Shown one piece after another: positions 2,339-35,194 of a DNA stretch of 64,000 nt (position 1 is the stretch's first letter; each line of letters begins with the position of its first letter). The translations under genes and the position numbers were made by a program. This stretch comes from Dehalococcoidia bacterium (GTDB lineage: Bacteria > Chloroflexota > Dehalococcoidia > Lucifugimonadales > UBA1127). The stretch spans positions 1,118,669-1,182,668 of the forward strand of contig OZ220679.1 in assembly GCA_965116355.1 (NCBI GenBank), read 5' to 3'. The notes beneath the pieces were generated by a model. It made no database searches. It was not told where the DNA came from and was given only the letters and a program-made list of their open reading frames with translations.

Positions 2339-2442
2339 ATGCAGTGAGCGGGGGTTGCGAGGGGGGGTTGGGGGAGAAAAGCGACTCGCCCCCGGCATGT
2401 GGCCGGAGGCGAGTCCGATGTCGTTTGGATGGAAGGCTGCAG

Positions 2443-2712
2443 CTAGACGGCGGCGGCCTTGACGTAGTCTGCGATGGCGCCCTTGATCCCCCTCATGCGG
2501 GTGAACTCCGGGTACTTGCCGTCCTCACTGTGCCGGTCAAAGACGACCTCGTCGTCACAGGTGACCTTGAGGACGCCGTTGTCGCCGGGGGTGACGGTGA
2601 TGGCTACCTTGTTGCCCAGGTCCGCGAAAATCTCGGTGGCTATCCAAGCCGCCTGCGGGAGGTAGCCTCAAGGCACGCAGTAGGTGATCTCCACAATAGG
2701 TTTGCCTTCCAT
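2443..2712 (-). CDS. Rdx/SelW-like selenoprotein (89 aa) with in-frame UGA = Sec at codon 15
   Basis: Own translation: MEGKPIVEITYCVP-U-GYLPQAAWIATEIFADLGNKVAITVTPGDNGVLKVTCDDEVVFDRHSEDGKYPEFTRMRGIKGAIADYVKAAAV. TGA at 2670..2668 falls in the CxxU position of the SelW/SelT/SelH redox motif. A SECIS-like hairpin follows directly 3' (2667..2638). AGGAG SD lies 7 nt before ATG 2712. Confidence 0.85.
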
Positions 2713-2740
2713 GACACAACTCCTTGGTAAGGTTGAAGGT

Positions 2741-2770
2741 AGGGTAGTTTGAGCAGGGGGAGGCTGTCAA
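2741..2770 (-). promoter_or_regulatory. candidate promoter TTGACA-18-TACCCT for the selenoprotein gene
   Basis: Minus-strand TTGACA (2770..2765), 18-nt spacer, TACCCT (2746..2741), about 30 nt upstream of ATG 2712. Confidence 0.4.
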
Positions 2771-2788
2771 CCGCGAGGAGAATCGAAC

Positions 2789-2824
2789 GGGGGCTGGCGA
2801 CGTCGCCGCAACGCGCCAGCCCCC
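2789..2824 (-). terminator. GC-rich hairpin downstream of nrdJ (possible terminator)
   Basis: GGGGGCTGGCG (2789..2799) and CGCCAGCCCCC (2814..2824) form a perfect 11-bp stem 58 nt after the nrdJ stop. There is no clear U tract. Confidence 0.35.
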
Positions 2825-2881: not shown

Positions 2882-5416
2882 CTAGCCGCACTTGTTGTAC
2901 CCGCACTCGTAGCACTTCTGACAGCCTTCCTCGTAGACCAGGGGCCCCGAGCACTCGGGGCACCGGCCCCAGTGCGTCAGATGAGGCGTCACGTCGGGAG
3001 CGGAGGGGGCGAGGGGGAGGGCGACGCCGCCACCGGCCGACTCCTTGGAGAAGAGGGCGAACTGGGCGCCGTAGGGACTGCCGGGCTCCATGCCGCAGAC
3101 CCTCGCCAGCGCAAGGGCGAGGGCATCGGGGGCGGAGCGGACCAGGGTACCCTCGCTCCAGACGGGCTCGTCTGTGATGCCGCGGAGCTGGGCGACGATG
3201 GAGGCGGGGTCGACGCCGGAGCGGAGGGCCATCGACACGAGCCGGGAGATGCCCTCCAGCTGCGCCTGGTCCGAGCTGCCGGCCTTGCCGAGGACGGTAA
3301 AGACCTCGAAGGGGCGGCCATCCCCGTCAAAGTTGATGGTGATGTACATGTTGCCGTGACTGGTGCGGACACGCTCCGTGACGCCGCTGACCCGGGGCGG
3401 GCGGCTCCGCATGGTGCGGTGTCCCTCCTCCTGCTCGGAGACCTCGGCGAGGGCCGTCGACGACTCGGAGGTGCCGGCGGTGAGGACCTCCTTCTCGCGG
3501 CTGCCGGCACGGTAGACGGTGATGCCCTTGCAGCCGGTCTCCCACGCCTGCATGTAGGTGTGCTCGACGTCCTCGACCGTGGCGCTGTTGGGGAAGTTGA
3601 TGGTCTTGGAGATGGCGGCGTCCGTGGACTCCTGGAAGGCGGCCTGCATGCGGACGTGCCACTCCGGCGAGATGTCCGGGGCGGTGGTGAAGACGTCCTT
3701 CACCCACTCGGGCGCCTCGTCGCTGTCCTGAAGGGAGCTGCCGGTGGAGAGGTACTCGGCGAGCTCGTCGCTGTAGAAGCCCTCGTGGCGGGCGACGGAC
3801 TCGAAGGCGCTGTCGATGTAGTAGAGCGTCTGGCCCTCAAGGATGTTGTGCTTGCGGAAGGCGAGGGCGAAGATCGGCTCGATGCCGCTGGAGCAGCCGG
3901 CGATCATGGAGATGGTGCCGGTGGGGGCGACGGTGAGCTGGCAGGCGTTGCGCTGGGGCTTCATGCCGGCGAGCTGCTGGCGGCTGCCCTCCCAGGCGAG
4001 GAAGGGGCCGCGGAGCTCGGCGAGGCGCTCGGACTCGGCGCGGGCCTCGTCGGCGATGAAGCGCATGACGGCGCGGCCGATCTCGACGCCCTCCTCGGAG
4101 TCGTAGGCGACGCCGAGGCGGACGAGCATGTCCGCGAAGCCCATGACGCCGAGGCCGGTCTTGCGGGTGAGCAGGTTCATGCGCTCGATCTCGGGGACCG
4201 AGTAGTTGTTGGCGTCGATGGTGTTGTCGAGGAAGTGGGCGGCGGTGCGGACGGTGGAGCGGAGGAGGTCCCAGTCGATCTCCGCGCCGTCGGGGCCGAA
4301 GGACAACATCCTGGTCAGGTTGATGGAGCCGAGGTTGCAGGACTCGTAGGGGAGCAGGGGCTGCTCGCCGCAGGGGTTGGTGGCCTCCATGGAGCCAAGG
4401 TGAGGCGTCGGCTGGCGGCGGTTGACCTCGTCGAGGAAGATCATGCCGGGCTCGCCGTTGCGCCATGCGCCCTCGACGATCTTCTTGAAGAGGTCGCGGG
4501 CGTCGCGCTCGACGCCGGTGGGCTGCTGGGAGACGGGGTCGATCTCGGCGACCGTGCCGCCGTCAACGACGGCGTGCATGAAGGCGTCGGTGGCGCCGAC
4601 GGAGATGTTGAAGTTGTGGATCTCGCCCTCCTGGGCCTTGCACTCGATGAACTCCTCGATGTCGGGGTGGTGGACGCTCATGACGGCCATGTTGGCGCCG
4701 TCGCGCTTGCCGCCCTGGGTGATCATCGTCGACACGCTGGAGAGGTGGCGAAGGACGGCGATGGGGCCGCAGGCCTTGCCGTGGGTGCTGGAGATGTGGG
4801 CGCCCTTCTGCCGCAGGTTGGACAGGGGGACGCCGGTGCCGCCGCCGAACTTCTGCACCATGGCGATGTCCGAGGCGGTCTTCATGATGTCCGACATGCT
4901 GTCCTCAAGGGGGAGGACGAAGCAGGCGGACAGGGTGCCGGCGTTGGTGCCCGCGTTCATCATGGTGGGGGAGTTGGGCAGGAACTCCAGCCGGGTCATC
5001 ATGCCGTAGAAGGTGTCCGCAGCCTCAGCGACCTCAAGGTCCGTTGCGCCGTAGTTGCGGTCGGCCTCGGCGATGGCGCGGGCGACACGGAGGAACATGC
5101 CGCGGGCGTCCTCAACGGGCTGGAACTGGTCGTTCTTCATGTAGTAGCGGTGGGCGAGGACGCGCTGGGCGTTCTCGGTCAGGTGGGGGCCGTCGCCCTC
5201 CTCGGGGCGGGTCATGCCGGTGGCCTCAAGGGCGCGCGCAACACGGCCGCGGGAGGGGCCGGCCACCGTCACCGCCGGGGCGCCGGACTCTAGTCGGTCG
5301 ATGGCGGCCTTGAGGGCGTCGCGGACGGCGGGCTCGGTCGTGGCGGCGAGCTTGTCGCGCAGGTCGGCCAGGGCCGCATCCCGCTCTACATCTGTTCGAG
5401 AACGAATATCAACCAC
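2882..5416 (-). CDS. nrdJ: adenosylcobalamin-dependent (class II) ribonucleotide reductase
   Basis: 844 aa with class II RNR signatures (..LSACFVLP.., ..NPCGEQPLLPYESCNLGSINL..) and a C-terminal Cys-rich tail CPECSGPLVYEEGCQKCYECGYNKCG. GTG start at 5416 has GGGAGGA SD. Directly downstream of nrdR. Confidence 0.95.
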   Translation of the reverse strand: MVDIRSRTDVERDAALADLRDKLAATTEPAVRDALKAAIDRLESGAPAVTVAGPSRGRVARALEATGMTRPEEGDGPHLTENAQRVLAHRYYMKNDQFQPVEDARGMFLRVARAIAEADRNYGATDLEVAEAADTFYGMMTRLEFLPNSPTMMNAGTNAGTLSACFVLPLEDSMSDIMKTASDIAMVQKFGGGTGVPLSNLRQKGAHISSTHGKACGPIAVLRHLSSVSTMITQGGKRDGANMAVMSVHHPDIEEFIECKAQEGEIHNFNISVGATDAFMHAVVDGGTVAEIDPVSQQPTGVERDARDLFKKIVEGAWRNGEPGMIFLDEVNRRQPTPHLGSMEATNPCGEQPLLPYESCNLGSINLTRMLSFGPDGAEIDWDLLRSTVRTAAHFLDNTIDANNYSVPEIERMNLLTRKTGLGVMGFADMLVRLGVAYDSEEGVEIGRAVMRFIADEARAESERLAELRGPFLAWEGSRQQLAGMKPQRNACQLTVAPTGTISMIAGCSSGIEPIFALAFRKHNILEGQTLYYIDSAFESVARHEGFYSDELAEYLSTGSSLQDSDEAPEWVKDVFTTAPDISPEWHVRMQAAFQESTDAAISKTINFPNSATVEDVEHTYMQAWETGCKGITVYRAGSREKEVLTAGTSESSTALAEVSEQEEGHRTMRSRPPRVSGVTERVRTSHGNMYITINFDGDGRPFEVFTVLGKAGSSDQAQLEGISRLVSMALRSGVDPASIVAQLRGITDEPVWSEGTLVRSAPDALALALARVCGMEPGSPYGAQFALFSKESAGGGVALPLAPSAPDVTPHLTHWGRCPECSGPLVYEEGCQKCYECGYNKCG

Positions 5417-5499
5417 CGTTTTCCTCCCTTGGTGTATCTACAAGGCCCAGCGAGAGGCCCCATGAGGCCCCGATGTTTGGCCGGGGGAAGGGAAGTGTA

Positions 5500-6057
5500 C
5501 TATCCCCCGGCGGCCGGTTTCTTGGGTCGTCTGACCCCTTTTTCCGGTGTTTCCGCGCCGGTTATGGGGAGGGAAAGCTGTGCCTCAAGGGCGGCATCGA
5601 GATTGGGCTCCGGGTCCCGCTGCAGCGCCTCCACTTCCTGGGCGAAGCTCTCCAGGTCCGCGAAGTTGCGGTACACGCTGGCAAAGCGCACATAGGCCAC
5701 GTGATCGAGGGATTTGAGGCCCTCCATAACCATGCGGCCAACCAAGGAGGCGGGGATTTCCGCCTTGGCCAGTGCGCTTATCTGCCGCTCCATGTCATCC
5801 ACCATCCGGTCTATGGCCTGGGACGACACCGGACGCTTGGCGCAGGCGGTGAGGATGCCCTGGCGGACCTTCTCACGATCAAACTCCTCACGGCGGCCGT
5901 CGCGCTTCACGACGAGCTGGGCGCCGGTGAAGACGCGCTCGACGGTGGTGAAGCGGAGGCCGCAACGCGCGCACTCGCGGCGGCGCTTGATGCCGTCGCT
6001 GGCGTCGCGGGAGTCGGTGACGCGGGAATCATCGTGGTCGCAGTATGGGCACCGCAC
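5500..6057 (-). CDS. nrdR: transcriptional repressor NrdR
   Basis: MRCPYCDHDDSRVTDSRDASDGIKRRRECARCGLRFTTVERV = NrdR zinc ribbon followed by an ATP-cone. Carries a C-terminal extension of about 30 aa. Confidence 0.95.
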   Translation of the reverse strand: MRCPYCDHDDSRVTDSRDASDGIKRRRECARCGLRFTTVERVFTGAQLVVKRDGRREEFDREKVRQGILTACAKRPVSSQAIDRMVDDMERQISALAKAEIPASLVGRMVMEGLKSLDHVAYVRFASVYRNFADLESFAQEVEALQRDPEPNLDAALEAQLSLPITGAETPEKGVRRPKKPAAGG

Positions 6058-19125: not shown

Positions 19126-20016
19126 CTAGTCACGCACTCCTGTGAGCTTGGCTAGCTTGAGAGTGCTGAAGCAGGCGATTGAGACGTACCACTTCACCCG
19201 GACCCGCGTGGCGTCCTTGCTTTCGAGACTGCCGACGCGCTCGGCGACGAGGCCGCCGGGGGCGGTGAGGCCGGCGACAGCGCCCTCGCCGAACTGGAGG
19301 GCGTAGATGGTGGAGGCGTCCGTCGACGAGCCGGCGCGGTTGTCGTCGGTGATGTGGTCGGAGACGCCGACGGGCACGCCGTCGTAGTAGTCGAGCATCA
19401 TGCCGAACTCGTTGCGATCGGAGACGAGGAGGCCGCTGCCGGCGCCGCGGGAGAGGGCGGTGAGCTTGCGGCGGGAGCGGCGGGACATGAGGAGCATGTG
19501 GGGCTTGCCGTCGATGACCTTGTCGATGAGCTCGTCCACCTTGTCGAGGGTGAGGGTGGCGCCGTTGGCGCCCATGGAGACGGTCTGGGCGGCGGTGGTC
19601 AGCTTGTCGATGCCGTCGAAGGACTTGGCGTCGGAGGAGGTGTCGCCGTTGACGAAGGTGTCCTCGAACTTGGCGCGGACGGCCTTGGCCTTGAGCTCGA
19701 CGACGGCGGCCTCGAGGTCCTGGACGTTGGAGCGGGTGGCGCGGAGGTAGTTGTCGACGTCGGCGTCGCCGCCGAGGATGGCGAGGGTGGCGGTGGCCTG
19801 GGTGAAGGTGGGGGTGGACTCGGCCCAGCCGTCACCGACGGTGTAGAAGGCGGCGGCGGGCGCGGTGTTCTCACGGTTGTACGTGAGGCCGTTGCCGACA
19901 ACCTCGATGAAGGGCAGGGCCTGGAGGACGGGGCTTTCCTTGACGATGGTCTCTATGACGCCGGTCAGGAGCATGTCGTTTGAGAGCTTCGCGCCCTCTG
20001 CCAGGGTGAGTGCCAT
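19126..20016 (-). CDS. HK97-fold phage major capsid protein (296 aa)
   Basis: LSNDMLLTGVIETIVKESPVLQALPFIEVVGNGLTYNRE...ATLAILGGDADVDNYL...FEDTFVNGDTSSDAKSFDGI... follows the Phage_capsid (HK97) pattern. GAGAGGAG SD. No delta/scaffold domain is apparent. Confidence 0.85.
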   Translation of the reverse strand: MALTLAEGAKLSNDMLLTGVIETIVKESPVLQALPFIEVVGNGLTYNRENTAPAAAFYTVGDGWAESTPTFTQATATLAILGGDADVDNYLRATRSNVQDLEAAVVELKAKAVRAKFEDTFVNGDTSSDAKSFDGIDKLTTAAQTVSMGANGATLTLDKVDELIDKVIDGKPHMLLMSRRSRRKLTALSRGAGSGLLVSDRNEFGMMLDYYDGVPVGVSDHITDDNRAGSSTDASTIYALQFGEGAVAGLTAPGGLVAERVGSLESKDATRVRVKWYVSIACFSTLKLAKLTGVRD

Positions 20017-20088
20017 GGGGACTCCTCTCCGCGGGCCGATCGGTGCGGCCCGACTTGTGTGATGCGGAGAGGGTAGAACGGGTGTGCT

Positions 20089-20116
20089 GGGATGGGGGAG
20101 GGGTTGGTGTCAGGGG
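20089..20116. repeat. 28-bp element, copy 2
   Basis: Identical to 8951..8978. Lies 73 nt upstream of the capsid ATG and 13 nt from TACCCT (20075..20070, minus strand). Confidence 0.85.
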
Positions 20117-20272
20117 TGGGGTTGCGGCGGACTCCTTACGGAACTGAAATGCTGTAATCCTACGACGCACTGGGGCAGCTTTGGTGCTATTGTTGAGACA
20201 TCAGCTTAGGCTTCAAGGTTGCAGCAGATGCGTAGCAAGAATAGCAGTCCAGATTCCACAGGAACGACTTGA

Positions 20273-21184
20273 ATGGACTTTACGAAACTCTTTGACGTGT
20301 TTTCGAGGCGCTCAGTGCTCAATGGCATCGACAGCCATCCTCTCACGCCACAATTCAAATACCGTTTCGCAAAGCTCTGCGCTGAGTACTTTTCCAACAA
20401 TGGCTTCATTGAAGAGTTTTGGTGGGAGATCAAAAGCAAGTTCGAATACTTGGAAGGCGGATCAATCGCTCAAGGGGGTAACACACTAGAAGTGGCTACA
20501 GGAGTGCTGGCATTTCTAGAACAGTGTGACGACAAGAAGTTCCTTGACTTTGTAGAGTTGGTCTTCAAGTTAGAGCACTTGCCTCCCGCCCTTATGGAAG
20601 AGCACCCCTTAGTCCGAAGCGTAAACCAATTCTTCGAACTGGATGGGCTGCCCTACGCCTTAACTGACTTCAGTTGGGAGGAGATTGAGGAGACTGAAGG
20701 CTGGTCTTCTGGCAAGAGTTATAGGTTATCCACTTATCCCCAAGTTGTCCTACGGGAGAGCGAGGTTGTCTATCAGAACGCAATTCTCCCATTGCTTACG
20801 CTCTTGCGCCAAGCTCATTTCTCAACGGCCAATGAGGAGTTCCTTAAGGGTCTTGCTGATTTTCGCAATGGTGACCACGAAGATTGCGTCGTTAAGTGTG
20901 TGAGCGCTTTCGAGAGTGTTCTGAAGGTGATTTGCCAGAGGAAGGGGTGGTCCTACAGTCAATCTGACACTGCCAAGGCTCTTGTGCCAAAAGTATTGGG
21001 TAAGACTTCGTTGGAGGAATTCTACAGGGAACCCTTGGTTCTAGTCGCAGACATAAGGAACCGTCAGAGCAGCGCTCACGGGGGTGGCGATCAGCCAAAG
21101 CGCGTCCCAAAGCACGTGGCCAACTATGTCATCAACTCCACGGCGGCTGCCATCTTGCTCTTGGTGCAAGAGGCCAATCTCTAG
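20273..21184 (+). CDS. AbiJ-like / STM4504-type protein: AbiJ N-terminal-like domain + C-terminal HEPN domain (303 aa)
   Basis: The C-terminus FSTANEEFLKGLADFRNGDHEDCVVKCVSAFESVLKVIC...IRNRQSSAHGGG contains an Rx4-6H HEPN motif. The N-terminus FSRRSVLNGIDSHPLTPQFKYRF is AbiJ-NTD-like. Clearly lower G+C. Confidence 0.7.
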   Translation: MDFTKLFDVFSRRSVLNGIDSHPLTPQFKYRFAKLCAEYFSNNGFIEEFWWEIKSKFEYLEGGSIAQGGNTLEVATGVLAFLEQCDDKKFLDFVELVFKLEHLPPALMEEHPLVRSVNQFFELDGLPYALTDFSWEEIEETEGWSSGKSYRLSTYPQVVLRESEVVYQNAILPLLTLLRQAHFSTANEEFLKGLADFRNGDHEDCVVKCVSAFESVLKVICQRKGWSYSQSDTAKALVPKVLGKTSLEEFYREPLVLVADIRNRQSSAHGGGDQPKRVPKHVANYVINSTAAAILLLVQEANL

Positions 21185-21320: not shown

Positions 21321-21752
21321 CTACGCCTTGGCGCTGAGGCATTGGAAGAGGCGGTCTATCTGTTGCTTGGCGACCGTTAGCATCATGCGCTGGCCTACGC
21401 GCGCGAGGATGCCGGTTACGTTGACGTCGCCGTCAAAGGTGAGGGTGGTGGCGTCGCCGTCGGGGGCGAGGGCGACGTTGCCCTCGCCCTTCAAGTCGGT
21501 GCGGACGCCGGAGCCCTGGACGACCATGCGGTAGGCGTTGGGGGCGTCGACGTCGCGGAGCTCCAGGGTGCCCTTGTAGGCGCCGGAGACGATGCCGACG
21601 CGGAAGCCGACCTCGAAGGCGTAGGTGTCGGGGGCGACGGCGGAGAAGGACTGGACGCCGGGGATGCACTCTCCGATGACCTCGGGGTCCATGAGGGCGG
21701 ACCAGAGGCGGTCGCGCTCGATGGGGAACTGGTAGCTGCCGCTGAGCTTCAT
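21321..21752 (-). CDS. coxG: CoxG-like SRPBCC protein (carbon monoxide dehydrogenase subunit G family)
   Basis: [36 protein letters not shown]... is typical CoxG. ATG 21752 lies 6 nt downstream of TGCTATAGT, which makes it a leaderless candidate. Confidence 0.85.
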
Positions 21753-21938
21753 GTTTTGACTATAGCAGGGGCGTGTGCGCGATGCGAGGGGGCGGGAGCC
21801 CATCGGGCCGCCCCTCGACGGGCCCCATCGAATAGCTCAGGACGCGATCAGGGCGAGGGGCACCAACGTTGGCCGACACCCCGGTATCACTTTCCCGTCC
21901 ACATACGGGCCGCGTATGCGGCATGTGCATATTTGCCA

Positions 21939-21966
21939 TTGACAATCACGCATGGAGTGATACCCT
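21939..21966 (+). promoter_or_regulatory. candidate promoter TTGACA-16-TACCCT for coxSLM
   Basis: TTGACA 21939..21944 and TACCCT 21961..21966, about 55 nt upstream of GTG 22023. Confidence 0.35.
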
Positions 21967-22022
21967 TGCCGCGCCGAGCCCAGTGCGCAATACACCCGGG
22001 GTGTCTCGGGAGGAGGTGCATC

Positions 22023-22496
22023 GTGAGTGTTCCGGTGGAAGTCACCATCAACGGGCGGGCCCATAGCGGGGAGGTGGAACCCCGCCAGCTGCTCGTCCAT
22101 TTCATCCGCGAGAACGTGGGGCTGACCGGCACCAAGGTGGGGTGCGACACCAGCCAGTGCGGCACCTGCACGGTGCAGCTCGACGGGGCGATCGCCAAGT
22201 CGTGCACGGTGCTGACGGTGCAGGCGTCGGGGTCGTCGGTCACGACCATCGAGGGTCTCTCGGACGGCGTGGACCTGCACCCGCTGCAGGAGGCCTTCTG
22301 GAACAAGCACGGACTGCAGTGCGGATTCTGCACGCCGGGCATGATCATGGCCTCCGCGGAGCTGCTCAAGAACAATCCCTCGCCCTCACGTGAGGAGATC
22401 CGGCATGCGCTGGAGGGGAACATCTGCCGCTGCACGGGGTACCAGAACATTGTGAGCGCGGTGGAAGAGGCCGCCGGCGCCATGGGAGGGAGCTAA
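22023..22496 (+). CDS. coxS: Mo-hydroxylase small subunit, [2Fe-2S] (CoxS-like)
   Basis: [12 protein letters not shown] and [10 protein letters not shown] cluster motifs. GTG 22023 with GGGAGGAGG SD. The upstream part of the track ORF has no homology pattern. Confidence 0.9.
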
Positions 22497-22499
22497 GCC

Positions 22500-24854
22500 A
22501 TGACGACGCGCTCATTCGGATCGGGCATCCGGCGCCGTGAGGACCCGCGGCTGATCACGGGCAAGGCGCCGTACACGGACGACATCAAGCTGCCGGGGAT
22601 GGTCCACGCGGCGATCCTCCGCAGCCCCCACGCACACGCGAACATCAAGAGCATCGACACCAGCGCCGCGGCGTCGCAGCCGGGGGTGCTGGCGGTCTAC
22701 ACCGGCGCCGACACGGACGGCGTCCTCGCCGGCATGCCCTGCGCATGGCTGATCCCGGGCTCCGACCTGAAGACGCCAGAGCACCCGGCCATCGCCAAGG
22801 ACCGCGTCCGCTACGTCGGCGACGCGGTGGCCGTCGTGGTTGCGTCGACGCGCTACGAGGCGGAGGACGCGCTGGAGCACATCGACGTCGAGTACGAGAC
22901 GCTCGGCGTAGTCATCAACCCCAGGGACGCCGCGCAGGCGGGCGCGCCGCAGCTCCACGACGACGTGGAGAACAACGTCGCCTTCACGTGGGCGGTGGCG
23001 GGCGGCGACACGGACGCGGCCTTCGCGTCGGCGGACGTGACGGTCAGCGACACCATCACGCTGCCGCGGCTGATCGCGAACCCGATGGAGCCGCGGTCGG
23101 CCGTCGCGTCGTACCTAGCTGCGATGAACGAGCTGACGCTGTGGAGCACGACGCAGAACCCGCACATCTGCCGGTTCCTGACCTCGGTGGTCACGGGCGT
23201 GCCGGAGCACAAGATCCGGGTCATCGCGCCGGAAGTCGGGGGCGGCTTCGGCAGCAAGATCCCCTACTACCCGGACGAGGCCATCACGGCCTTCTGCGCG
23301 ATGAAGCTGGGCGTGCCGGTCAAGTGGACGGAGACGCGCAGCGAGAACTACCTGGCGACGACGCAGGGCCGCGACCACGTCGAGGAAGTCGAGATGGCGG
23401 CCACGTCCGACGGCACGATCACGGGCCTCCGGACGACGGTGTACGCCGGCATGGGCGCATACCTCTCGACGGCGGCGCCGGGCGTGCCGACGATCCTGCA
23501 CGGCCTGATGTACTCGGGCGCGTACAACATCGCGAACATCTCGGGGACGATCTACGGCGTGTTCAACAACGGCACGCCGGTGGACGCCTACCGCGGCGCG
23601 GGCCGGCCGGAGGCCACGACGCTCATCGAGCGGCTGGTGGACCTGACGGCGGCGGCGCTGGACATGGACCCGGCGGAGCTTCGGCGCAAGAACCTGATCC
23701 CGAAGTTCGAGAACGGCCACGACGTCGCGACGGGCATCATCTACGACAGCGGCGACTACGAGCTGACGCTGGACGCCTGCCTGAACAACGCGGACTACGC
23801 CGGCCTTCGGGCATCGCAGGCGGCGGCCCGCGCCGATGGGCGGCTGGTCGGCATCGGCATGGCGACGTGGGTGGAGATCTGCGGGCTGGGCCCGTCACAG
23901 GTGGCGGGCGCGGTCGGATTCCAGGGCGGCCTGTGGGAGAGCGCCATCGTGCGGTTCCACCCCACGGGCAAGGTCAACGTCATGGTCGGCTCCTCGCCGC
24001 ATGGACAGGGTGAGGAGACGACGTTCGCGCAGATCGTCTCGGAGGAGCTGGGCGTGCCGGTGGAGGACGTGGAGATCATCCACGGCGACACGGACAACAC
24101 GCCGATGGGCTGGGGCACGTATGGCAGCCGGACGACGGTGGTGTCCGGCGGCGCGATTGCGTTCGCCTCGCGGAAGATCAAGGAGAAGTCCAAGGAGCTG
24201 GCGGCGCACCTGCTGGAGGCGGCCGTCGAGGACATCGAGTACGAGGACGGGCGGTTCTTCGTCCGTGGGTCGGCCGACCAGGCCAAGACGATCCAGGACA
24301 TCGCGCTGATGGCCAACGTGGCGTGGAGCATGCCGGAGGGCATGGAGCCGGGGCTGGAGGCGAGCGCCTTCTACGACCCGCCGAACTTCACCTACCCCTT
24401 CGGCACGCACCTGGCGGTGGTCGAGGTGGACCCGGAAACGGGGCGCATCGACCTGCAGAACTACTGGGCGGTGGACGACTGCGGCGTGCAGATCAACCCG
24501 ATGATCGTCGAGGGACAGGTGCACGGCGGCGTGGTGCAGGGCGTGGGCCCGGCGCTGTGGGAAGGCGTCGTCTATGACGACAACGGCCAGCCGCTGACGG
24601 GCACCATGCAGGACTACGCCCTCCCGAGGGCCGACCTACTGCCGGACATCAACGTCGGGTCCACGACGACGCCGTCGCCGCACCACCCGCTGGGGCTGAA
24701 GGGCGTCGGCGAGGCGGGGACGATCGCGGCCACCCCGACGGTGTACAACGCCGTCATGGACGCGCTGCGGCCGCTGGGCGTCAACCGGGTCGACATGCCG
24801 CTGACGCCCGAGAAGGTGTGGCGCGCCATCAACGACGCGAAGAATGGAGGCTAA
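22500..24854 (+). CDS. coxL: Mo-hydroxylase large subunit, form II CoxL-like (AYRGAGR active-site loop)
   Basis: 784 aa of the xanthine dehydrogenase/CODH large-subunit family. Contains VDAYRGAGRPEA rather than the form I AYxCSFR motif. Confidence 0.9.
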   Translation: MTTRSFGSGIRRREDPRLITGKAPYTDDIKLPGMVHAAILRSPHAHANIKSIDTSAAASQPGVLAVYTGADTDGVLAGMPCAWLIPGSDLKTPEHPAIAKDRVRYVGDAVAVVVASTRYEAEDALEHIDVEYETLGVVINPRDAAQAGAPQLHDDVENNVAFTWAVAGGDTDAAFASADVTVSDTITLPRLIANPMEPRSAVASYLAAMNELTLWSTTQNPHICRFLTSVVTGVPEHKIRVIAPEVGGGFGSKIPYYPDEAITAFCAMKLGVPVKWTETRSENYLATTQGRDHVEEVEMAATSDGTITGLRTTVYAGMGAYLSTAAPGVPTILHGLMYSGAYNIANISGTIYGVFNNGTPVDAYRGAGRPEATTLIERLVDLTAAALDMDPAELRRKNLIPKFENGHDVATGIIYDSGDYELTLDACLNNADYAGLRASQAAARADGRLVGIGMATWVEICGLGPSQVAGAVGFQGGLWESAIVRFHPTGKVNVMVGSSPHGQGEETTFAQIVSEELGVPVEDVEIIHGDTDNTPMGWGTYGSRTTVVSGGAIAFASRKIKEKSKELAAHLLEAAVEDIEYEDGRFFVRGSADQAKTIQDIALMANVAWSMPEGMEPGLEASAFYDPPNFTYPFGTHLAVVEVDPETGRIDLQNYWAVDDCGVQINPMIVEGQVHGGVVQGVGPALWEGVVYDDNGQPLTGTMQDYALPRADLLPDINVGSTTTPSPHHPLGLKGVGEAGTIAATPTVYNAVMDALRPLGVNRVDMPLTPEKVWRAINDAKNGG

Positions 24855-24856
24855 CC

Positions 24857-25723
24857 ATGTTTCCATCACAGTTCACGTACCATCGCGCCGCCTCGGTTGC
24901 CGAGGCCGTGCAGCTGCTGGGCAGCAATGAGGGCGCGAAGCTGCTGGCGGGCGGGCACAGCCTGCTGCCGATGATGAAGCTGCGCGTGGCCTCGCCGCCG
25001 ACGCTGGTGGACATCGGCCACATCGCAGACTTGAAGGGCGTGTCGGCGGACGGCGACGGCGTGCGCATCGGCGCGCTGACGACGCACGCGGAGATCGCGG
25101 GGTCGTCGCTGGTGCAGGAGCGGGCGCCGGTGCTGGCAGAGGCGGCAGGCAGGGTCGGCGACCCGGCGGTCCGCAACCGGGGCACCATCGGCGGCAACGT
25201 GTCGCACGCCGACCCGCAGTCTGACCTGCCGACGGTGCTGACAGCGCTGGGCGCGACGATCAACGCGACGGGCCCGGGCGGCAACCGGAGCATCGCGGCG
25301 GCCGACTTCTTCACGGGCCTGCTTGAGAACGCGCTGGAGGACAACGAGGTGCTGACGAGCGTGTCGGTGCCGGGCGTGGCCTCGGGCGCGGGCACGGCCT
25401 ACGTCAAGTTCTCGCACCCGGCGTCGCGGTACTCGGTGGTCGGGGCCGCGGCGGTGGTGAGCGTGTCGGGCGGCACGTGCTCGTCGGCCACGGTGGTGGT
25501 CGGCGGCGTGGAGTCGACGCCGACGCGGGCGTCGTCGGTCGAGGCGGCGCTGGCCGGATCGGCCACCGGCGCGGACGCGCTGGCGGCGGCCGCTTCGGCG
25601 GTGTCGGGCGACTTCGGCGGCGACCCGGTGGGCGACGTCTTCGCGTCCAACGAGTACCGGCAGGCGATGGCGGCCGTCTACGTCAGGCGGGCGCTGGAGG
25701 CCGCGGTAGCGCGCGCGGGGTAG
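24857..25723 (+). CDS. coxM: Mo-hydroxylase medium subunit, FAD-binding (CoxM-like)
   Basis: MFPSQFTYHRAASVAEAVQLLGSNEGAKLLAGGHSLLPMMKLR. ATG 24857 with GGAGG SD. Confidence 0.9.
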   Translation: MFPSQFTYHRAASVAEAVQLLGSNEGAKLLAGGHSLLPMMKLRVASPPTLVDIGHIADLKGVSADGDGVRIGALTTHAEIAGSSLVQERAPVLAEAAGRVGDPAVRNRGTIGGNVSHADPQSDLPTVLTALGATINATGPGGNRSIAAADFFTGLLENALEDNEVLTSVSVPGVASGAGTAYVKFSHPASRYSVVGAAAVVSVSGGTCSSATVVVGGVESTPTRASSVEAALAGSATGADALAAAASAVSGDFGGDPVGDVFASNEYRQAMAAVYVRRALEAAVARAG

Positions 25724-25750
25724 CCCGCGCAGCCCGATTACAGGCACAAT

Positions 25751-25811
25751 GAGGGGGCGGCACACCGACCGCCCCCTCCGTTCACCCTTCGATTTCCCTC
25801 AGGGCGAACGG
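25751..25811. repeat. 10-bp perfect hairpin (possible coxM terminator) followed by REP-A
   Basis: GAGGGGGCGG-CACACCGA-CCGCCCCCTC (25751..25778), then CCGTTCACCCT-TCGATTTCCCTC-AGGGCGAACGG (25778..25811). Confidence 0.75.
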
Positions 25812-25857
25812 GCATGCAAGAACGCCATCTCAAAAACCGCCTTGGAGGACCCTGACA

Positions 25858-26793
25858 GTGGAGCAATCGACCGCGCCCACCATTCCCGAGTCCGTCGACG
25901 GGCTGCAGGAGGCGCTGCGGGGCGAGATGTACGTCGCCGACCGCGGGCTGGCGATGTCGGTCTACCTGGCGCTGCAGCTCGGGCGGCCGCTCTTCCTGGA
26001 GGGCGAGGCGGGCGTCGGGAAGACGGAGGTGGCGCGGGCGCTGTCGTCGGCGCTGAACGCGCGGCTCATCCGGCTGCAGTGCTACGAGGGGCTGGACATC
26101 AGCCAGGCGGTGTACGAGTGGAACTACTCGCGGCAGTTGCTGCACCTGCGGCTGCTGGAGGCCTCGGGCGGCGTCGACCGTGAGAGCGCCGAGCGGGAGC
26201 TGTTCAGCGAGGACTTCCTGATCAAACGGCCGCTGCTGCAGGCGCTGGAGGGCGGCGGCCGGAAGGTGCTGCTCATCGACGAGCTGGACCGGGCGGACGA
26301 GGAGTTCGAGGGGTACCTGCTGGAGATGCTCTCGGACTTCCAGATCACGGTGCCGGAGGTCGGCACGTACACGGCGGAGTCGCGGCCGGTGGTCGTCATC
26401 ACGTCGAACCGGACGCGGGAGATCCACGACGCGCTGAAGCGGCGGTGCCTCTACTACTGGATCGACTACCCGGACCTGGCCAAGGAGACGGAGATCGTCC
26501 GGAGCAAGGCGCCGGGGGCGTCGGGGAGGCTGGCGGGGCAGGTGACGGCCTTCGTGCAGGAGCTTCGGGGAGCCGAGCTGTACAAGGTGCCGGGGGTGGC
26601 GGAGACGCTGGACTGGACGGCGGCGCTGGTCAGCCTGAACACGGAGCAGCTCACGCCGGAGGTCATCGACGAGACGCTGGGCGTCATGCTGAAGTACCGC
26701 GAGGACGTCGAAAACGTCCGCGGCGAGCAGACCCGCGCGCTGCTGGCTCGGGCGCAGAACCGCGGCGCGGGGCGCGGCGGCAGGCGTGGCTAG
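25858..26793 (+). CDS. coxD: MoxR-family AAA+ ATPase (CoxD-like)
   Basis: Walker A GEAGVGKT, Walker B LLIDELDRA. Position is downstream of coxSLM. Confidence 0.9.
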   Translation: MEQSTAPTIPESVDGLQEALRGEMYVADRGLAMSVYLALQLGRPLFLEGEAGVGKTEVARALSSALNARLIRLQCYEGLDISQAVYEWNYSRQLLHLRLLEASGGVDRESAERELFSEDFLIKRPLLQALEGGGRKVLLIDELDRADEEFEGYLLEMLSDFQITVPEVGTYTAESRPVVVITSNRTREIHDALKRRCLYYWIDYPDLAKETEIVRSKAPGASGRLAGQVTAFVQELRGAELYKVPGVAETLDWTAALVSLNTEQLTPEVIDETLGVMLKYREDVENVRGEQTRALLARAQNRGAGRGGRRG

Positions 26794-28135
26794 CGAGGCG
26801 GTCGGCCCAACGAGTGGGCCGGTCGGCCCGGCTGGCGGGCCAGAGGGGCAGTTCCTCCCCAACCTGCTGCTCTTCGGCAGGCTGCTGCGTCGGGTGGGCC
26901 TCGACGTGCACGCGGGGCGAATGCTGGACGCGGTGCACGTGCTCGAGGACATCGGACTGCGGCGGCGGGGCGACGTGCACGCGGTGCTGCGCACGCTGCT
27001 GGTGCACCGCCGCGAGGACCTACCCGTCTTCGACGAGGCTTTCTCCGTCTTCTGGCGGCAGCGCAAGGACCAGACGTTCACCATGGACCTGCGCTCCATG
27101 GGCGAGCAGCGCCGCTACCGGTACGTCGAGGCGGGGCCGCCGCCGCTCGGGCAGCCCTCGGACGCCGTGGGCGGCGAGGACGACAGCTCGGAGGAGGGCG
27201 GCGACCGCATCGACATCACACGCACCTACAGCGCGCGCGAGGTGCTGCAGACCAAGGACTTTTCCGAATACACGCCGTCGGAGATGGCGCAGGCCCGGCT
27301 GCTGATGGCGTCGCTGGCGTGGAATCCGGGCACTCGGCGGTCGCGGCGGCTGGAGCGCGGAGACGGCCACGGCCTCGACCTTCGGCGGACGCTGCGGGAC
27401 AACGCGCGGTACGGCGGCGAGCTGCTCGAGCTGCGCCGGCGTCGTCGGAAGGAGAAGCCGCGCAAGCTGGTCGTCGTCTGCGACGTCAGCGGCTCCATGG
27501 AGCGCTACACGCGGATGCTGCTGCACTTCATCCACAGCCTGTACGGGGGTCTGAACGGGCAGGTGGAGGCCTTCCTCTTCGCGACGCGGCTGACGCGGGT
27601 CACCAAGCAGCTCCAGCACCGGGACATCGACCAGGCGGTGGGTGACGTGTCGAAGGCGGTGCCGGACTGGTCGGGCGGGACGCGCATCGGGGCGGCGCTG
27701 CGGGAGTTCAACTTCACGTGGGCGCGCCGGACGCTGGGGTGGGGGTCGATCGTGCTGGTCGTGTCCGACGGCTGGGACCGGGGCGAGCCGGAGCTGCTGG
27801 GGCGCGAGATGGAGCGGCTGCAGCGGAGTTGCCGGCGGCTGATCTGGCTGAGCCCGCTGGCCGGCGTCGAGGACTACGAGCCGCTGACGCGGGGGCTGCG
27901 CGCGGCGACGCCGTACGTCGACGATCTGCTGCCGGTGCACAACCTGGCGGCGCTGATGGACCTGGCGCGGCACCTGAACTCGCTGACGTCGGGCGCGCCG
28001 GAGCGGCGGCAGCGGCCCTCGCCTGCGGCGGACGAGGCAAGCGAGGAGGAGCCGTCGGCGCCGGTGCAACGCTCGTGGCACCGGGACGCGAACCCGACGT
28101 TCCGGCACCCGCTGTGGGGGCGGGGGGATCCCTAA
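26786..28135 (+). CDS. coxE: VWA domain protein (CoxE-like)
   Basis: MIDAS motif VVVCDVSGSM in the C-terminal VWA domain. Overlaps coxD by 8 nt. Confidence 0.85.
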   Translation: MASEAVGPTSGPVGPAGGPEGQFLPNLLLFGRLLRRVGLDVHAGRMLDAVHVLEDIGLRRRGDVHAVLRTLLVHRREDLPVFDEAFSVFWRQRKDQTFTMDLRSMGEQRRYRYVEAGPPPLGQPSDAVGGEDDSSEEGGDRIDITRTYSAREVLQTKDFSEYTPSEMAQARLLMASLAWNPGTRRSRRLERGDGHGLDLRRTLRDNARYGGELLELRRRRRKEKPRKLVVVCDVSGSMERYTRMLLHFIHSLYGGLNGQVEAFLFATRLTRVTKQLQHRDIDQAVGDVSKAVPDWSGGTRIGAALREFNFTWARRTLGWGSIVLVVSDGWDRGEPELLGREMERLQRSCRRLIWLSPLAGVEDYEPLTRGLRAATPYVDDLLPVHNLAALMDLARHLNSLTSGAPERRQRPSPAADEASEEEPSAPVQRSWHRDANPTFRHPLWGRGDP

Positions 28136-29628
28136 GTTACGAGAGCATCCACCGTGTCTTCCCTCAGCCCACCTTCCAACCTCTCGACAGCCGCTTGTTC
28201 GAACAGATTGGCGCGGTCTTTCATCTCGAACGCTTCCAGCACCTTGCTCCCAATTGCATCTTGAACCTTCTTGGGAGCATCAGGGATAAGAACCTCAGAC
28301 AGATCCTCTGGCGTTAGTTCGTCCACGACAGCACCATAGATCTTGGACTGGACTTGATGCTGGCCATAGGGGGTCATTAGGAACAAAGAGATGTACCCAG
28401 GATTGTAAGCTCCTTCTTCAGCAACAAGGCGGATTAAATGTTCCGACGCTGCCCACCCATTAGTTATGCTGGATACGATCCCAACTTGGCCCACTGTACC
28501 CGAACGAGTTATCAACATCCAGTGTCGGCTTACTCTACATTGTTGCAGGTGGCGTTCGTCGCTCCGCGCTAGGTATTGCAAGTCGTACGGTTTCATTAAG
28601 GGGACGTGCGAACCTTGGATGAAGGGAACGCCATATTCTTTGGTAACGTAGATACGCTTGAACCTGCCTGGATGGAATATGTCCTCACATGCTTCTTCTA
28701 AAGGCACCGGGTGATAACGTCCCGTAAGCATGATTCTGACTGCTGTCTTTGCCAAGGGTATATGAAAGGAAGCGTCTAGGCGCGAGCGCAACGTTGAAGA
28801 GGTTACGGTAAATGCCCGAAGTGAGCCCATAACGAAGTTCGATTCATTTTGGGGTAAGTATTCGATAAGGCTTTCCTCGAATGGCGGTAGAGCTAACTCA
28901 CCGTAGAGCTCAGTAGTGGCAGTGTCCAATAGCTGATTCGCCTTCTCTCGTAAGACATAGGCACGTTCAATCAGATTCGCGATCTCTTGCATTTCAGAAA
29001 CAGACAATAGCGGCACTGGAATATCGGTAACGTGGTGAGGTTCTAGGTGTTTGATGACTGCTCCATACCGGTTCCTTGTCAACAACGCTTGCCCAATCCA
29101 AGACGAAAGATAAGTGTAGAGGTAGCCCGCCGGTATGTCTGTCGACGGGACGATTCGAATCAAATCGTGAGAGAGGAAGAACCGTTCAACACGTTGTGTC
29201 GCCAACATAGGACGCCCGACGGTTCCTGATGCTGACAGCAAGATCCACCCGGCTTTTGCGAAGTGGTCGTCAGAGTCCTTAGGCGCATTTTCACGGGCAA
29301 TCCACCGGGTGCTGGCAGGACGGAAGTGAAAGGTCTCTGACGGGCTCAGGTATGGCCAACCCATTTCCGAAGAACCCGCGTAGATCCGTTTGAACCTTCC
29401 AAGGAGAAAGCATTTACTGACCAATTTACCTAGCTGTTGAGTTCCTCCAGCATGCCTATCAAGCGCAAGCAATGCATGAGCAGCTCCAGTGGAGTAGTAG
29501 CCTGCATCAAGGCGAAGATCACCATAATCTATCCAGCCGGATCGTACCTGCGATACGAACCCGCTAGGGTTGGCAGCTATCTGCTCAGCAAGGTCCTGCC
29601 CTTTGATCAGATCTCCGACTTCAACCAT
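28132..29628 (-). CDS. restriction-modification specificity (S) subunit with two target-recognition domains (498 aa)
   Basis: HsdS-like duplicated TRD architecture with conserved spacer helices (..IANLIERAYVLREKANQLLDTATTELYGEL..). 8-nt overlap with the upstream RM gene. Low G+C. Confidence 0.85.
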   Translation of the reverse strand: MVEVGDLIKGQDLAEQIAANPSGFVSQVRSGWIDYGDLRLDAGYYSTGAAHALLALDRHAGGTQQLGKLVSKCFLLGRFKRIYAGSSEMGWPYLSPSETFHFRPASTRWIARENAPKDSDDHFAKAGWILLSASGTVGRPMLATQRVERFFLSHDLIRIVPSTDIPAGYLYTYLSSWIGQALLTRNRYGAVIKHLEPHHVTDIPVPLLSVSEMQEIANLIERAYVLREKANQLLDTATTELYGELALPPFEESLIEYLPQNESNFVMGSLRAFTVTSSTLRSRLDASFHIPLAKTAVRIMLTGRYHPVPLEEACEDIFHPGRFKRIYVTKEYGVPFIQGSHVPLMKPYDLQYLARSDERHLQQCRVSRHWMLITRSGTVGQVGIVSSITNGWAASEHLIRLVAEEGAYNPGYISLFLMTPYGQHQVQSKIYGAVVDELTPEDLSEVLIPDAPKKVQDAIGSKVLEAFEMKDRANLFEQAAVERLEGGLREDTVDALVT

Positions 29629-34898: not shown

Positions 34899-35192
34899 TT
34901 GCGCGTGCTTTCAAAGAAGATCCTGCGGCTGTTCTGGGAGCAGCACAGGGAAGCCCAACAACCACTTCTCGCGTGGTATCGGGAAGTTGAACGCGCGGAC
35001 TGGTCTCTACCGGGCGAAGTGCTGGAGAGATTTCCGAGGGCAAGCATCGTAGGAACCGACAGGGTGGTATTCAGGATAAGCGGCGGAAGCTACCGAATCG
35101 TTGCGCGTGTGTTCTACCCAGGGCGTCGCGTGTACATTCGTTTTGTGGGAACACACAACGAATACGAGCGCATCAATGTGGAGGAGGTCTAG
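34899..35192 (+). CDS. higB: type II toxin HigB (RelE/ParE superfamily mRNA interferase)
   Basis: From TTG 34899: MRVLSKKILRLFWEQHREAQQPLLAWYREVERADWSLPGEVLERFPRASIVGTDRVVFRISGGSYRIVARVFYPGRRVYIRFVGTHNEYERINVEEV. This is collinear with HigB_toxin family members that begin MRVISKK. The track start at 34827 adds an unlikely extension. Confidence 0.85.
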   Translation: MRVLSKKILRLFWEQHREAQQPLLAWYREVERADWSLPGEVLERFPRASIVGTDRVVFRISGGSYRIVARVFYPGRRVYIRFVGTHNEYERINVEEV

Positions 35193-35194
35193 TG

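What the first reader, a model, noticed from the sequence alone, without database searches (positions are those of the whole stretch)
2443..2712. Unannotated Rdx/SelW-like selenoprotein: in-frame UGA in a CVPU redox motif with a SECIS-like hairpin
No ORF in the track covers this minus-strand stretch, because a TGA at 2670..2668 splits it. Reading through gives an 89-aa protein: MEGKPIVEITYCVP-U-GYLPQAAWIATEIFADLGNKVAITVTPGDNGVLKVTCDDEVVFDRHSEDGKYPEFTRMRGIKGAIADYVKAAAV. The UGA falls exactly at the second redox position of the CxxC/CxxU motif after the first beta strand that defines the SelW/SelT/SelH (Rdx) thioredoxin-fold family. The rest of the sequence is collinear with that family. Immediately 3' of the UGA the mRNA can fold as GGCUA-CC-uc-CCG(CAGG)CGG-cuu-GG-a-UAGCC (window 2667..2638). 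That is a stem-loop with a G-containing apical loop at the distance expected for a bacterial SECIS. A good SD (AGGAG) and a TTGACA-18-TACCCT promoter precede the ATG. Standard gene callers would miss the gene or truncate it to 14 codons.
Basis: partly seen in the sequence, partly recalled or inferred. Interest (0 to 1): 0.75.

Follow-up and report, generated by a model that had tools for sequence, protein, structure and literature searches.

The report
Unannotated SelW-like selenoprotein gene, Dehalococcoidia

Summary
The minus-strand frame 2712..2443 reads as described: 89 codons with one in-frame TGA (2670..2668) in a C-V-P-U motif. With U scored as C, the protein passes the curated cut-offs of Pfam Rdx (58.7 bits vs 22.6) and TIGR02174 CXXU_selWTH (43.3 vs 34.2).

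- The TGA is kept in 28 of 30 species-level Chloroflexota/Dehalococcoidia genomes, two close metagenomic relatives and 7 of 8 distant family members. Cys homologues, including six solved structures, place Cys opposite it.
- TGA is an ordinary stop elsewhere in the window.
- The conserved element is a 19-nt hairpin at UGA+15..+33 (window 2653..2635), GGcGGCU[UGGAU]AGCCaCC. It shows compensatory changes at 3-4 pairs, and no shuffle reaches its covariation score. It decays in Cys forms that encode the same peptide.
- selA, selB, selD and tRNA-Sec are not in the DNA I hold, so the machinery in this genome is untested. The literature lists Dehalococcoidia MAGs with 46-49 selenoproteins.

CxxU SelW-like proteins have been the most abundant marine prokaryotic selenoprotein family since 2005. 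This is a new member of a known kind and an annotation gap.

The parts
2443..2712 (-). Coding sequence of the SelW-like (Rdx family) selenoprotein: 88 residues plus Sec, from ATG 2712..2710 to TAG stop 2445..2443
   Evidence: Translation. Pfam Rdx 58.7 bits vs cut-off 22.6. TIGR02174 43.3 bits vs 34.2. GC3 0.84. Orthologues in 30 genomes.
2668..2679 (-). Redox motif C-V-P-U: TGC 2679..2677, GTG, CCT, then the Sec codon TGA 2670..2668
   Evidence: Aligned to the CxxC of Cys homologues and of PDB chains 2OKA and 3DEX. TGA kept in 28 of 30 genome loci, in L001 and L002, and in 7 of 8 distant representatives.
2635..2653 (-). Proposed bacterial SECIS hairpin, UGA+15..+33. 5' arm 2653..2647 (GGCGGCU), apical loop 2646..2642 (UGGAU, containing the invariant Trp codon), 3' arm 2641..2635 (AGCCACC). 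It has one conserved C.A mismatch (C2651/A2637).
   Evidence: RNAalifold consensus. 100% of cells paired, 3 of 6 pairs compensatory, 0 of 500 shuffles reach the covariation score. On 18 divergent sequences the covariation score is 0.519 vs 0.175. All 31 Sec forms keep at least 6 of 7 pairs, against 5, 3 and 2 of 7 in same-peptide Cys forms.
2638..2667 (-). It can form in this sequence but is not conserved, and it overlaps the conserved hairpin so the two cannot form together. It is probably not the functional element.
   Evidence: no covariation, pairs broken in most relatives. (-12.2 kcal/mol here, -0.8 kcal/mol in L013).
2720..2724 (-). Shine-Dalgarno AGGAG, 7 nt upstream of the ATG
   Evidence: Read directly from the sequence. 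Conserved in all 9 close relatives.
2741..2770 (-). Candidate promoter: TTGACA (2770..2765), 18-nt spacer, TACCCT (2746..2741)
   Evidence: Both hexamers are conserved while the 17-18 nt spacer varies in 8 of 9 close relatives. Not called by the sigma-70 consensus scan. Inferred, not shown.
2373..2415 (-). Intrinsic terminator after the gene: 14-bp stem (11 G-C pairs), 5-nt loop, then GCTTTTCTCC

Best explanation
Window 2712..2443 (-) is a monocistronic gene, with its own SD, a probable promoter and a terminator. It encodes an 89-residue thioredoxin-fold-family protein of the Rdx / SelW-like group whose active-site dyad is Cys12-x-x-Sec15.

Proposed mechanism:
1. When the ribosome reaches UGA 2670..2668, the 19-nt hairpin 14 nt further on (2653..2635) sits at the mRNA entrance. 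Its small G-containing loop is UGGAU.
2. The hairpin recruits SelB.GTP.Sec-tRNASec, so Sec is inserted instead of termination.
3. The product is a CxxU thiol/selenol oxidoreductase, presumably cycling through a selenenylsulfide. Its physiological substrate is unknown, as for all bacterial SelW-like proteins.

Shown here: the frame, family membership by profile, the position of the UGA in the dyad, conservation of the UGA, and covariation and Sec-specificity of the hairpin.

Inferred: SelB binding, actual Sec insertion, and the redox role.
For: 1. Family. Pfam Rdx 58.7 bits (cut-off 22.6). TIGR02174 CXXU_selWTH 43.3 bits (cut-off 34.2). Six solved bacterial Rdx proteins match at E 4e-12 to 2e-5 with CxxC aligned to CVPU.

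2. UGA in the dyad. In a 31-sequence alignment, 13 full-length homologues have CxxC at the site, and two database proteins read W there. One of those, P0009, was checked and is a TGA in the DNA.

3. Conservation. The TGA is in frame in 28 of 30 species-representative Chloroflexota/Dehalococcoidia genomes at 40-99% protein identity. The other two have TGC. It is also in frame in L001 and L002 and in 7 of 8 distant truncated representatives. The peptide upstream of the TGA is conserved too, so translation starts before it.

4. No global recoding. TGA ends 12 of 49 called genes, 8 of them among the 37 Pfam-supported genes.

5. SECIS.
- RNAalifold predicts UGA+15..+33.
- Every cell pairs, and there are compensatory changes at 3 of 6 pairs: G-C/A-U, C-G/G-C 14:11, and U-A/G-C 22:3. 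No shuffle of 500 reaches the score.
- Synonymous codons mirror each other exactly: GCC19/GCG12 with GCG19/GCC12, and GCU28/GCG3 with AUA28/AUC3.
- In divergent members the stem sequence changes but the register and loop stay. Pair 27:39 is CG7 GC7 UA3 AU1 with none unpaired.
- Cys forms encoding the same A[AG]WIATEF peptide lose the hairpin, keeping 5, 3 and 2 of 7 pairs.

6. Literature.
- CxxU SelW-like was the most abundant prokaryotic selenoprotein family in the Sargasso Sea and GOS data: 427 Sec forms vs 56 Cys forms in GOS (PMC1088965, PMC2398784).
- BSepDB lists Dehalococcoidia MAGs with 46-49 selenoproteins, and identifies the Sec system by searching for SelA, SelB and SelD (PMC13326102).
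Against: - No selA, selB, selD or tRNA-Sec in the 64-kb window or in about 600 kb of relatives' flanks. This is expected for unlinked genes but leaves the machinery unverified for this genome.
- No second selenoprotein gene in the window or the flanks.
- No match to any Rfam SECIS family, even at E <= 10.
- The hairpin is small (-7.7 kcal/mol alone). In this particular sequence the non-conserved competing fold is more stable (-12.2 vs -9.1 kcal/mol).
- The covariation rests on few independent events among related sequences.
- The score against the NF041051 equivalog is below its cut-off (55.4 vs 88).
- There is no experimental evidence of Se incorporation.
Confidence: 0.9

Rival explanations
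1. Pseudogene: a Cys-form Rdx gene (TGC/TGT) that suffered a nonsense mutation to TGA, so only a 14-residue peptide, or nothing, is made.
For: One base separates TGC/TGT from TGA, and Cys forms exist in the same clade (L019, L026). Sec machinery is not demonstrated for this genome.
Against: - The TGA is kept at the same codon in 28 of 30 species-level genomes spanning 40-99% identity, and in 7 of 8 distant members.
- The reading frame stays intact, with a conserved peptide and coding-type GC3 on both sides.
- A covarying hairpin specific to the TGA forms follows it.
- SD, promoter hexamers and terminator are conserved.
Confidence: 0.01
2. The UGA is read through to give a full-length protein, but with an amino acid other than Sec. 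Options are Trp or Cys by near-cognate or suppressor tRNA, or SelB-dependent insertion of Cys by a tRNASec-like tRNA. The hairpin would act as a read-through stimulator.
For: The identity of the inserted residue cannot be read from DNA. The Sec machinery is not verified in this genome. Two public pipelines translated the codon as W (P0008, P0009).
Against: - TGA is an ordinary stop for 12 of 49 genes in the window, so there is no code-4/25-type reassignment.
- The W calls are explained by the source pipelines' choice of genetic code (the locus does not translate to the query under table 11).
- The codon sits exactly where Cys homologues have the catalytic Cys. This family is an established selenoprotein family with more Sec forms than Cys forms in marine data (PMC2398784).
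- Position and loop composition of the hairpin fit bacterial SECIS features (PMC1088965).
- Dehalococcoidia MAGs are documented Sec users (PMC13326102).
Confidence: 0.04
3. The gene is a selenoprotein gene, but the functional SECIS is the first reader's larger stem-loop starting directly after the UGA (2667..2638), at least in the window's own narrow clade.
For: In the window's RNA this fold is the more stable of the two (-12.2 vs -9.1 kcal/mol). It is the MFE of the sequence downstream of the UGA. It is intact in WIN and L001-L008.
Against: - No compensatory change, and pairs 10:39, 20:27 and 21:26 are broken in most relatives.
- It is indistinguishable from shuffles on the divergent set.
- It collapses to -0.8 kcal/mol in L013.
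- Codons 3 and 4 inside it drift freely at synonymous sites.
- From established knowledge of the E. coli system (my recollection, not tested here), a stem starting at UGA+1 would lie inside the ribosome's mRNA channel when the UGA is in the A site. The essential fdhF SECIS hairpin begins about 11 nt downstream.
Confidence: 0.05

Closest known systems
Bacterial SelW-like selenoproteins (CxxU; Zhang, Gladyshev and colleagues: Sargasso Sea 2005, PMC1088965; GOS 2008, PMC2398784)
   Same: Same family by profile (Pfam Rdx, TIGR02174). Same CxxU motif near the N-terminus, same size of about 85-95 aa, and a SECIS inside the coding sequence just after the UGA with a small G-containing loop. Sec forms outnumber Cys forms.
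   Different: Nothing categorical. This is a Dehalococcoidia subfamily with the strongly conserved peptide U-GYLPQAAWIATEF. I did not compare its SECIS with the published SelW-like example, because the figures are not held.
Cys-form bacterial Rdx proteins with solved structures: 2OKA, 3DEX (SAV_2001), 2OBK, 2FA8 (Atu0228), 2OJL, 2P0G
   Same: Collinear over about 70 residues at E 4e-12 to 2e-5. The motifs I-x-Y-C-x-x-C and AAW[LI]A.E are shared.
   Different: They have Cys where this protein has Sec, so their genes need no SECIS. They are about 15 residues longer at the C-terminus.
Mammalian selenoprotein W and the SelT/SelH/SelV Rdx group (my recollection of the family description)
   Same: Thioredoxin-like Rdx family with a CxxU dyad after the first beta strand. 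The biochemical substrate is also unsettled.
   Different: Eukaryotic SECIS elements lie in the 3' UTR and use SBP2/eEFSec (PMC1088965 background). Here the element is a short in-frame hairpin.
E. coli fdhF SECIS, the model bacterial SECIS (established knowledge, not tested here)
   Same: A hairpin within the coding sequence a short, fixed distance 3' of the UGA, with G in a small apical loop and an imperfection in the stem.
   Different: Here the spacer is 14 nt, the stem has 6-7 bp with a C.A mismatch rather than a bulged U, and the loop is UGGAU. There is no sequence similarity and no Rfam SECIS hit.

Membership tests
Rdx / SelT-SelW-SelH family (Pfam PF10262; NCBIfam TIGR02174 CXXU_selWTH) | Whole-protein score above the curated cut-off of the family profile | tested here: met
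   PF10262 58.7 bits vs 22.6. TIGR02174 43.3 bits vs 34.2. Scored with the UGA position entered as Cys.
Rdx / SelT-SelW-SelH family (Pfam PF10262; NCBIfam TIGR02174 CXXU_selWTH) | CxxC/CxxU redox dyad near the N-terminus, with the Sec/UGA aligned to the second Cys of Cys-containing members | tested here: met
   Alignment A1 has 13 homologues with CxxC in the same columns. HMMER alignments to 2OKA and 3DEX put ITYCVP[U]GYL on ITYCTQCQWL and IEYCTQCRWL.
Rdx / SelT-SelW-SelH family (Pfam PF10262; NCBIfam TIGR02174 CXXU_selWTH) | Thioredoxin-like fold | not tested
The fold is inferred only from sequence similarity to six solved Rdx structures.
NCBIfam NF041051 SelTWH_Campy (equivalog) | Score above the equivalog cut-off | tested here: not met
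   55.4 bits vs cut-off 88. It is related to that equivalog group but not a member of it.
Bacterial selenoprotein gene (SelB/SECIS-dependent UGA recoding) | In-frame UGA conserved among orthologues and aligned with Cys in homologues | tested here: met
   28 of 30 genome loci, L001 and L002, and 7 of 8 distant members carry TGA. L019, L026, L036 (first gene), L039 and L041 carry Cys.
Bacterial selenoprotein gene (SelB/SECIS-dependent UGA recoding) | Stem-loop immediately downstream of the UGA within the coding sequence, with a small apical loop containing G (PMC1088965) | tested here: met
Hairpin at UGA+15..+33 with loop UGGAU. Supported by covariation and specific to Sec forms.
Bacterial selenoprotein gene (SelB/SECIS-dependent UGA recoding) | selA, selB, selD and tRNA-Sec present in the same genome | not testable with these tools
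   None in the 64-kb window or in relatives' flanks. The SelB-like hits were IF-2. Indirect support only: BSepDB lists Dehalococcoidia MAGs with 46-49 selenoproteins (PMC13326102).
Bacterial selenoprotein gene (SelB/SECIS-dependent UGA recoding) | Selenium actually incorporated (75Se labelling or mass spectrometry) | not testable with these tools
   Needs an experiment.
Rfam SECIS families | Covariance-model match | tested here: not met
   No hit at the gathering threshold in the window. No SECIS hit at E <= 10 in 2400..2800. This does not count against a bacterial SECIS, because these elements are short and gene-specific.

The most novel reading that the evidence does not exclude
In the window's narrow clade, the selenoprotein could be the dedicated hydrogen donor of the class II (B12-dependent) ribonucleotide reductase encoded immediately upstream, in the arrangement nrdR - nrdJ - selW-like. 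That would be an NrdH-like role, and it would give a bacterial SelW-like protein its first defined substrate. The evidence does not exclude this. A still more exotic option, also not excluded, is that the UGA is decoded SelB-dependently as something other than Sec.
Probability: 0.06. Interest if true: 0.5.

Novelty: new member of a known kind. Interest (0 to 1): 0.22.

Why it matters
- **Annotation.** The gene is missing or truncated in every public call I found (58-aa and 50-aa fragments, or W at the Sec site). The same error affects dozens of Dehalococcoidia genomes.
- **Detection.** The comparative result gives a concrete, testable SECIS for this subfamily: a 14-nt spacer, a 6-7 bp stem, and a UGGAU loop built on the invariant Trp codon. 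That could be used to find and correctly annotate these genes automatically.
- **A caution.** The most stable hairpin after a UGA in a single sequence can be the wrong one.
- **What it does not do.** It does not change what is known about selenoprotein biology.

Tried and rejected
1. **Thermodynamics alone.** Neither the 51-nt nor the 123-nt region folds better than shuffles, so this was uninformative.
2. **Rfam.** Nothing at gathering or permissive thresholds. The istR and WT1-AS hits are chance (E about 1).
4. **Repeat noise.** The large multi-stretch hits of the exhaustive search (P0003-P0007 and others, 900-3600 aa, up to 24 stretches) were set aside as repeat or low-complexity matches without further analysis.
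5. **Alignment too diverse.** Alignment A1 was too diverse for the locus scan, so I used the closer A2. As a result, all 30 loci share the A[AG]WIA[TV]E pattern and are biased towards one subfamily. I offset this with 8 distant representatives.
6. **Sec-machinery bait.** The only hits were GTPase domains that NCBIfam identifies as IF-2.
7. **Possible second selenoprotein.** The roughly 550-aa conserved neighbour that is split in six loci is AroK/AroB, fused or separate, with ordinary stops.
8. **Redox-motif TGA scans.** Scans of the window and of all flanks found only this gene and its orthologues.
9. **RNR link.** nrdR-nrdJ synteny with the gene holds only in the close relatives L001-L008, so it is weak evidence for a functional link.
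10. **Literature lead.** Mukai et al. 2017 (PMC5424206) was checked for alternative UGA decoding in Dehalococcoidia and is not relevant.

Full report
**1. The observation**

The minus strand of window 2712..2443 translates as MEGKPIVEITYCVP*GYLPQAAWIATEIFADLGNKVAITVTPGDNGVLKVTCDDEVVFDRHSEDGKYPEFTRMRGIKGAIADYVKAAAV*. The only internal stop is a TGA at 2670..2668, and no mechanical ORF spans it.

- Third-position GC is 0.84 over the whole frame and 0.89 after the TGA. That matches the real genes of this 66% GC window, which have GC3 of about 0.9.
- AGGAG (2724..2720) lies 7 nt before the ATG.
- A strong intrinsic terminator follows the stop: a 14-bp stem and a T-run at 2415..2373. The gene therefore looks monocistronic.
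The E. coli-type consensus scan does not call it. However, both hexamers are conserved islands across a variable 17-18 nt spacer in 8 of 9 close relatives. A promoter there is plausible but only inferred.

**2. Family**

With the UGA position entered as Cys, the protein scores as follows:

| Profile | Score (bits) | Curated cut-off | Result |
|---|---|---|---|
| Pfam Rdx (PF10262) | 58.7 | 22.6 | passes |
| TIGR02174 CXXU_selWTH | 43.3 | 34.2 | passes |
| NF041051 SelTWH_Campy (equivalog) | 55.4 | 88 | below cut-off |

Six solved bacterial Rdx proteins (2OKA, 3DEX, 2OBK, 2FA8, 2OJL, 2P0G) match at E 4e-12 to 2e-5. Their C-x-x-C aligns with C-V-P-U.

**3. Homologues and the UGA**

The word-indexed protein search found only two fragments, of 58 and 50 aa. 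Their contigs carry the same 14 upstream codons, the same TGA and the same neighbouring genes. Gene callers had simply restarted after the stop.

An exhaustive HMMER search with the 74 residues after the TGA returned three kinds of short protein:

- full-length Cys forms with CxxC
- two proteins with W at the site
- many proteins that begin just after the motif

In the alignment, the UGA falls exactly on the second Cys of the dyad.

The single genome-collection scan returned 30 loci, all from Chloroflexota/Dehalococcoidia MAGs. The nearest is 99% identical (JAPPNT010000132, RHO3_bin_79). Of the 30, 28 have an in-frame TGA at the site and 2 have TGC.

DNA for eight distant "truncated" or "W" representatives showed YCV[PN]-TGA upstream in seven. 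The eighth is a Cys form cut by a scaffold gap. The W of P0009 is a TGA.

TGA is an ordinary stop in this genome. It ends 12 of 49 called genes, 8 of them among the 37 Pfam-supported genes. Wholesale reassignment is therefore excluded, and a pseudogene is excluded by the conservation.

**4. The hairpin**

On its own, the region folds no better than shuffles (z = -0.56 and -0.28), and nothing in Rfam matches. Comparison with relatives decides the matter.

- 76% of cells are paired, with no compensatory change.
- Three pairs are broken in most of 25 distinct Sec-form sequences.
- On a more divergent 18-sequence set it has 68% paired against 67% in shuffles.

*The conserved hairpin (UGA+15..+33 = window 2653..2635), GGcGGCU[UGGAU]AGCCaCC:*

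- RNAalifold predicts it independently.
- Every cell pairs, and 3 of 6 pairs show double compensatory changes: G-C/A-U, C-G/G-C 14:11, and U-A/G-C 22:3. No shuffle of 500 reaches the covariation score.
- Across the 31 TGA-bearing sequences the synonymous codons mirror each other exactly. Ala codon 6 is GCC in 19 and GCG in 12, while Ala codon 10 is GCG in 19 and GCC in 12. Ala codon 7 is GCU in 28 and GCG in 3, while Ile codon 9 is AUA in 28 and AUC in 3.
- In the divergent members the stem sequence differs (GCAGCC/GGUUGC, GGCUGCC/GGCAGU, and others) but the register and the UGGAU loop persist.
- On the combined set the covariation score is 0.519 against 0.175 (0 of 500 shuffles). Pair 27:39 takes all four Watson-Crick forms with none unpaired.

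*Control with Cys forms.* All 31 Sec forms keep at least 6 of 7 pairs, at -4.2 to -10.4 kcal/mol. Three Cys forms that encode the same A[AG]WIATEF peptide keep 5, 3 and 2 of 7 pairs, at -3.5, -1.7 and +4.7 kcal/mol. The peptide therefore does not force the hairpin.

*Caveats:*

- The sequences are related, so the compensatory changes represent few independent events.
- There are only three same-peptide Cys controls.

A 14-nt spacer and a small G-containing loop fit the published description of bacterial SECIS elements (PMC1088965).

**5. Sec machinery**

- The window has no tRNA at all.
- A Pfam pass over about 50 genes found no selA, selB or selD.
- The relatives' flanks have no tRNA-Sec.
- Bait searches in the flanks found only IF-2.
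- No second selenoprotein candidate turned up in the window or the flanks.

Indirect support comes from two sources. One is the clade-wide conservation of the UGA together with a Sec-form-specific hairpin. The other is BSepDB, which identifies the Sec system by searching for SelA, SelB and SelD and lists Dehalococcoidia MAGs with 46-49 selenoproteins (PMC13326102).

**6. Context and function**

The gene lies between nrdR-nrdJ (class II ribonucleotide reductase; 6057..2882) and two family-less proteins followed by an ArsR-type regulator.

- This arrangement is shared only by the close relatives L001-L008.
- In the distant loci the conserved neighbours are aroK/aroB and other housekeeping genes.

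Context therefore gives no robust functional partner. The mechanism I commit to is the standard one: SelB/SECIS-directed Sec insertion producing a CxxU oxidoreductase whose substrate is unknown. A role as reductant of the adjacent RNR is a low-probability speculation.

**7. Comparison and novelty**

CxxU SelW-like proteins were the most abundant prokaryotic selenoprotein family in the Sargasso Sea data (48 genes) and in GOS (427 Sec forms vs 56 Cys forms) (PMC1088965, PMC2398784). NCBI maintains profiles named for exactly this family.

The finding is a correct detection of an unannotated member, so it is a new member of a known kind. The useful additions are the corrected, covariation-supported SECIS for the Dehalococcoidia subfamily, and the observation that public gene calls for it are systematically truncated.

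**Verdict**

- Confidence that this is a genuine Sec-encoding gene is 0.9.
- Interest is low to moderate, at 0.22.

Noticed in passing
window 28132..31657 (-): A low-GC island (0.49-0.52 against 0.66-0.73 around it). It holds a restriction-modification module: an N6 DNA methylase with an HSDR_N domain (29621..31657) and a specificity subunit (28132..29628). It sits between the cox (CO/xanthine-dehydrogenase-type) cluster and pyruvate kinase and looks horizontally acquired.
   Followed up: partly
window 35192..36460 (+): A lower-GC gene (0.57) that matches the PADLOC defence model PD-Lambda-2_B at 447 bits and carries a Peptidase_M78 domain. It is a candidate anti-phage gene.
   Followed up: partly
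window 19126..21184: An HK97-type Phage_capsid domain protein (19126..20016, -) lies next to a DUF7014/Abi_C protein with atypical GC3 of 0.60 (20273..21184, +). This may be a prophage remnant or a defence islet.
   Followed up: no
whole window (49 called genes): TAG is the commonest stop codon (28, against 12 TGA and 9 TAA) in a 66% GC genome. From my general knowledge, high-GC bacteria usually favour TGA, so this is unusual. I did not examine whether it relates to the cost of UGA ambiguity in a Sec-rich lineage.
   Followed up: partly
L009..L032, within 0.4-2 kb downstream of the SelW-like gene: Shikimate kinase and 3-dehydroquinate synthase are fused into one roughly 551-aa protein in eight Dehalococcoidia genomes and are separate adjacent genes in six. 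This is a gene fusion/fission polymorphism within the class.
   Followed up: partly
L036 450..1085: Two Rdx genes lie in tandem on one metagenomic contig. A Cys form (CVPC) is directly followed by a Sec form (CVP-TGA), which looks like a snapshot of Cys/Sec paralogue divergence.
   Followed up: no
window 21321..28135: A complete aerobic CO-dehydrogenase-type cluster: coxG, a small 2Fe-2S subunit, a large molybdopterin subunit, an FAD subunit, and the coxD-like AAA and coxE-like VWA accessory genes.
   Followed up: no
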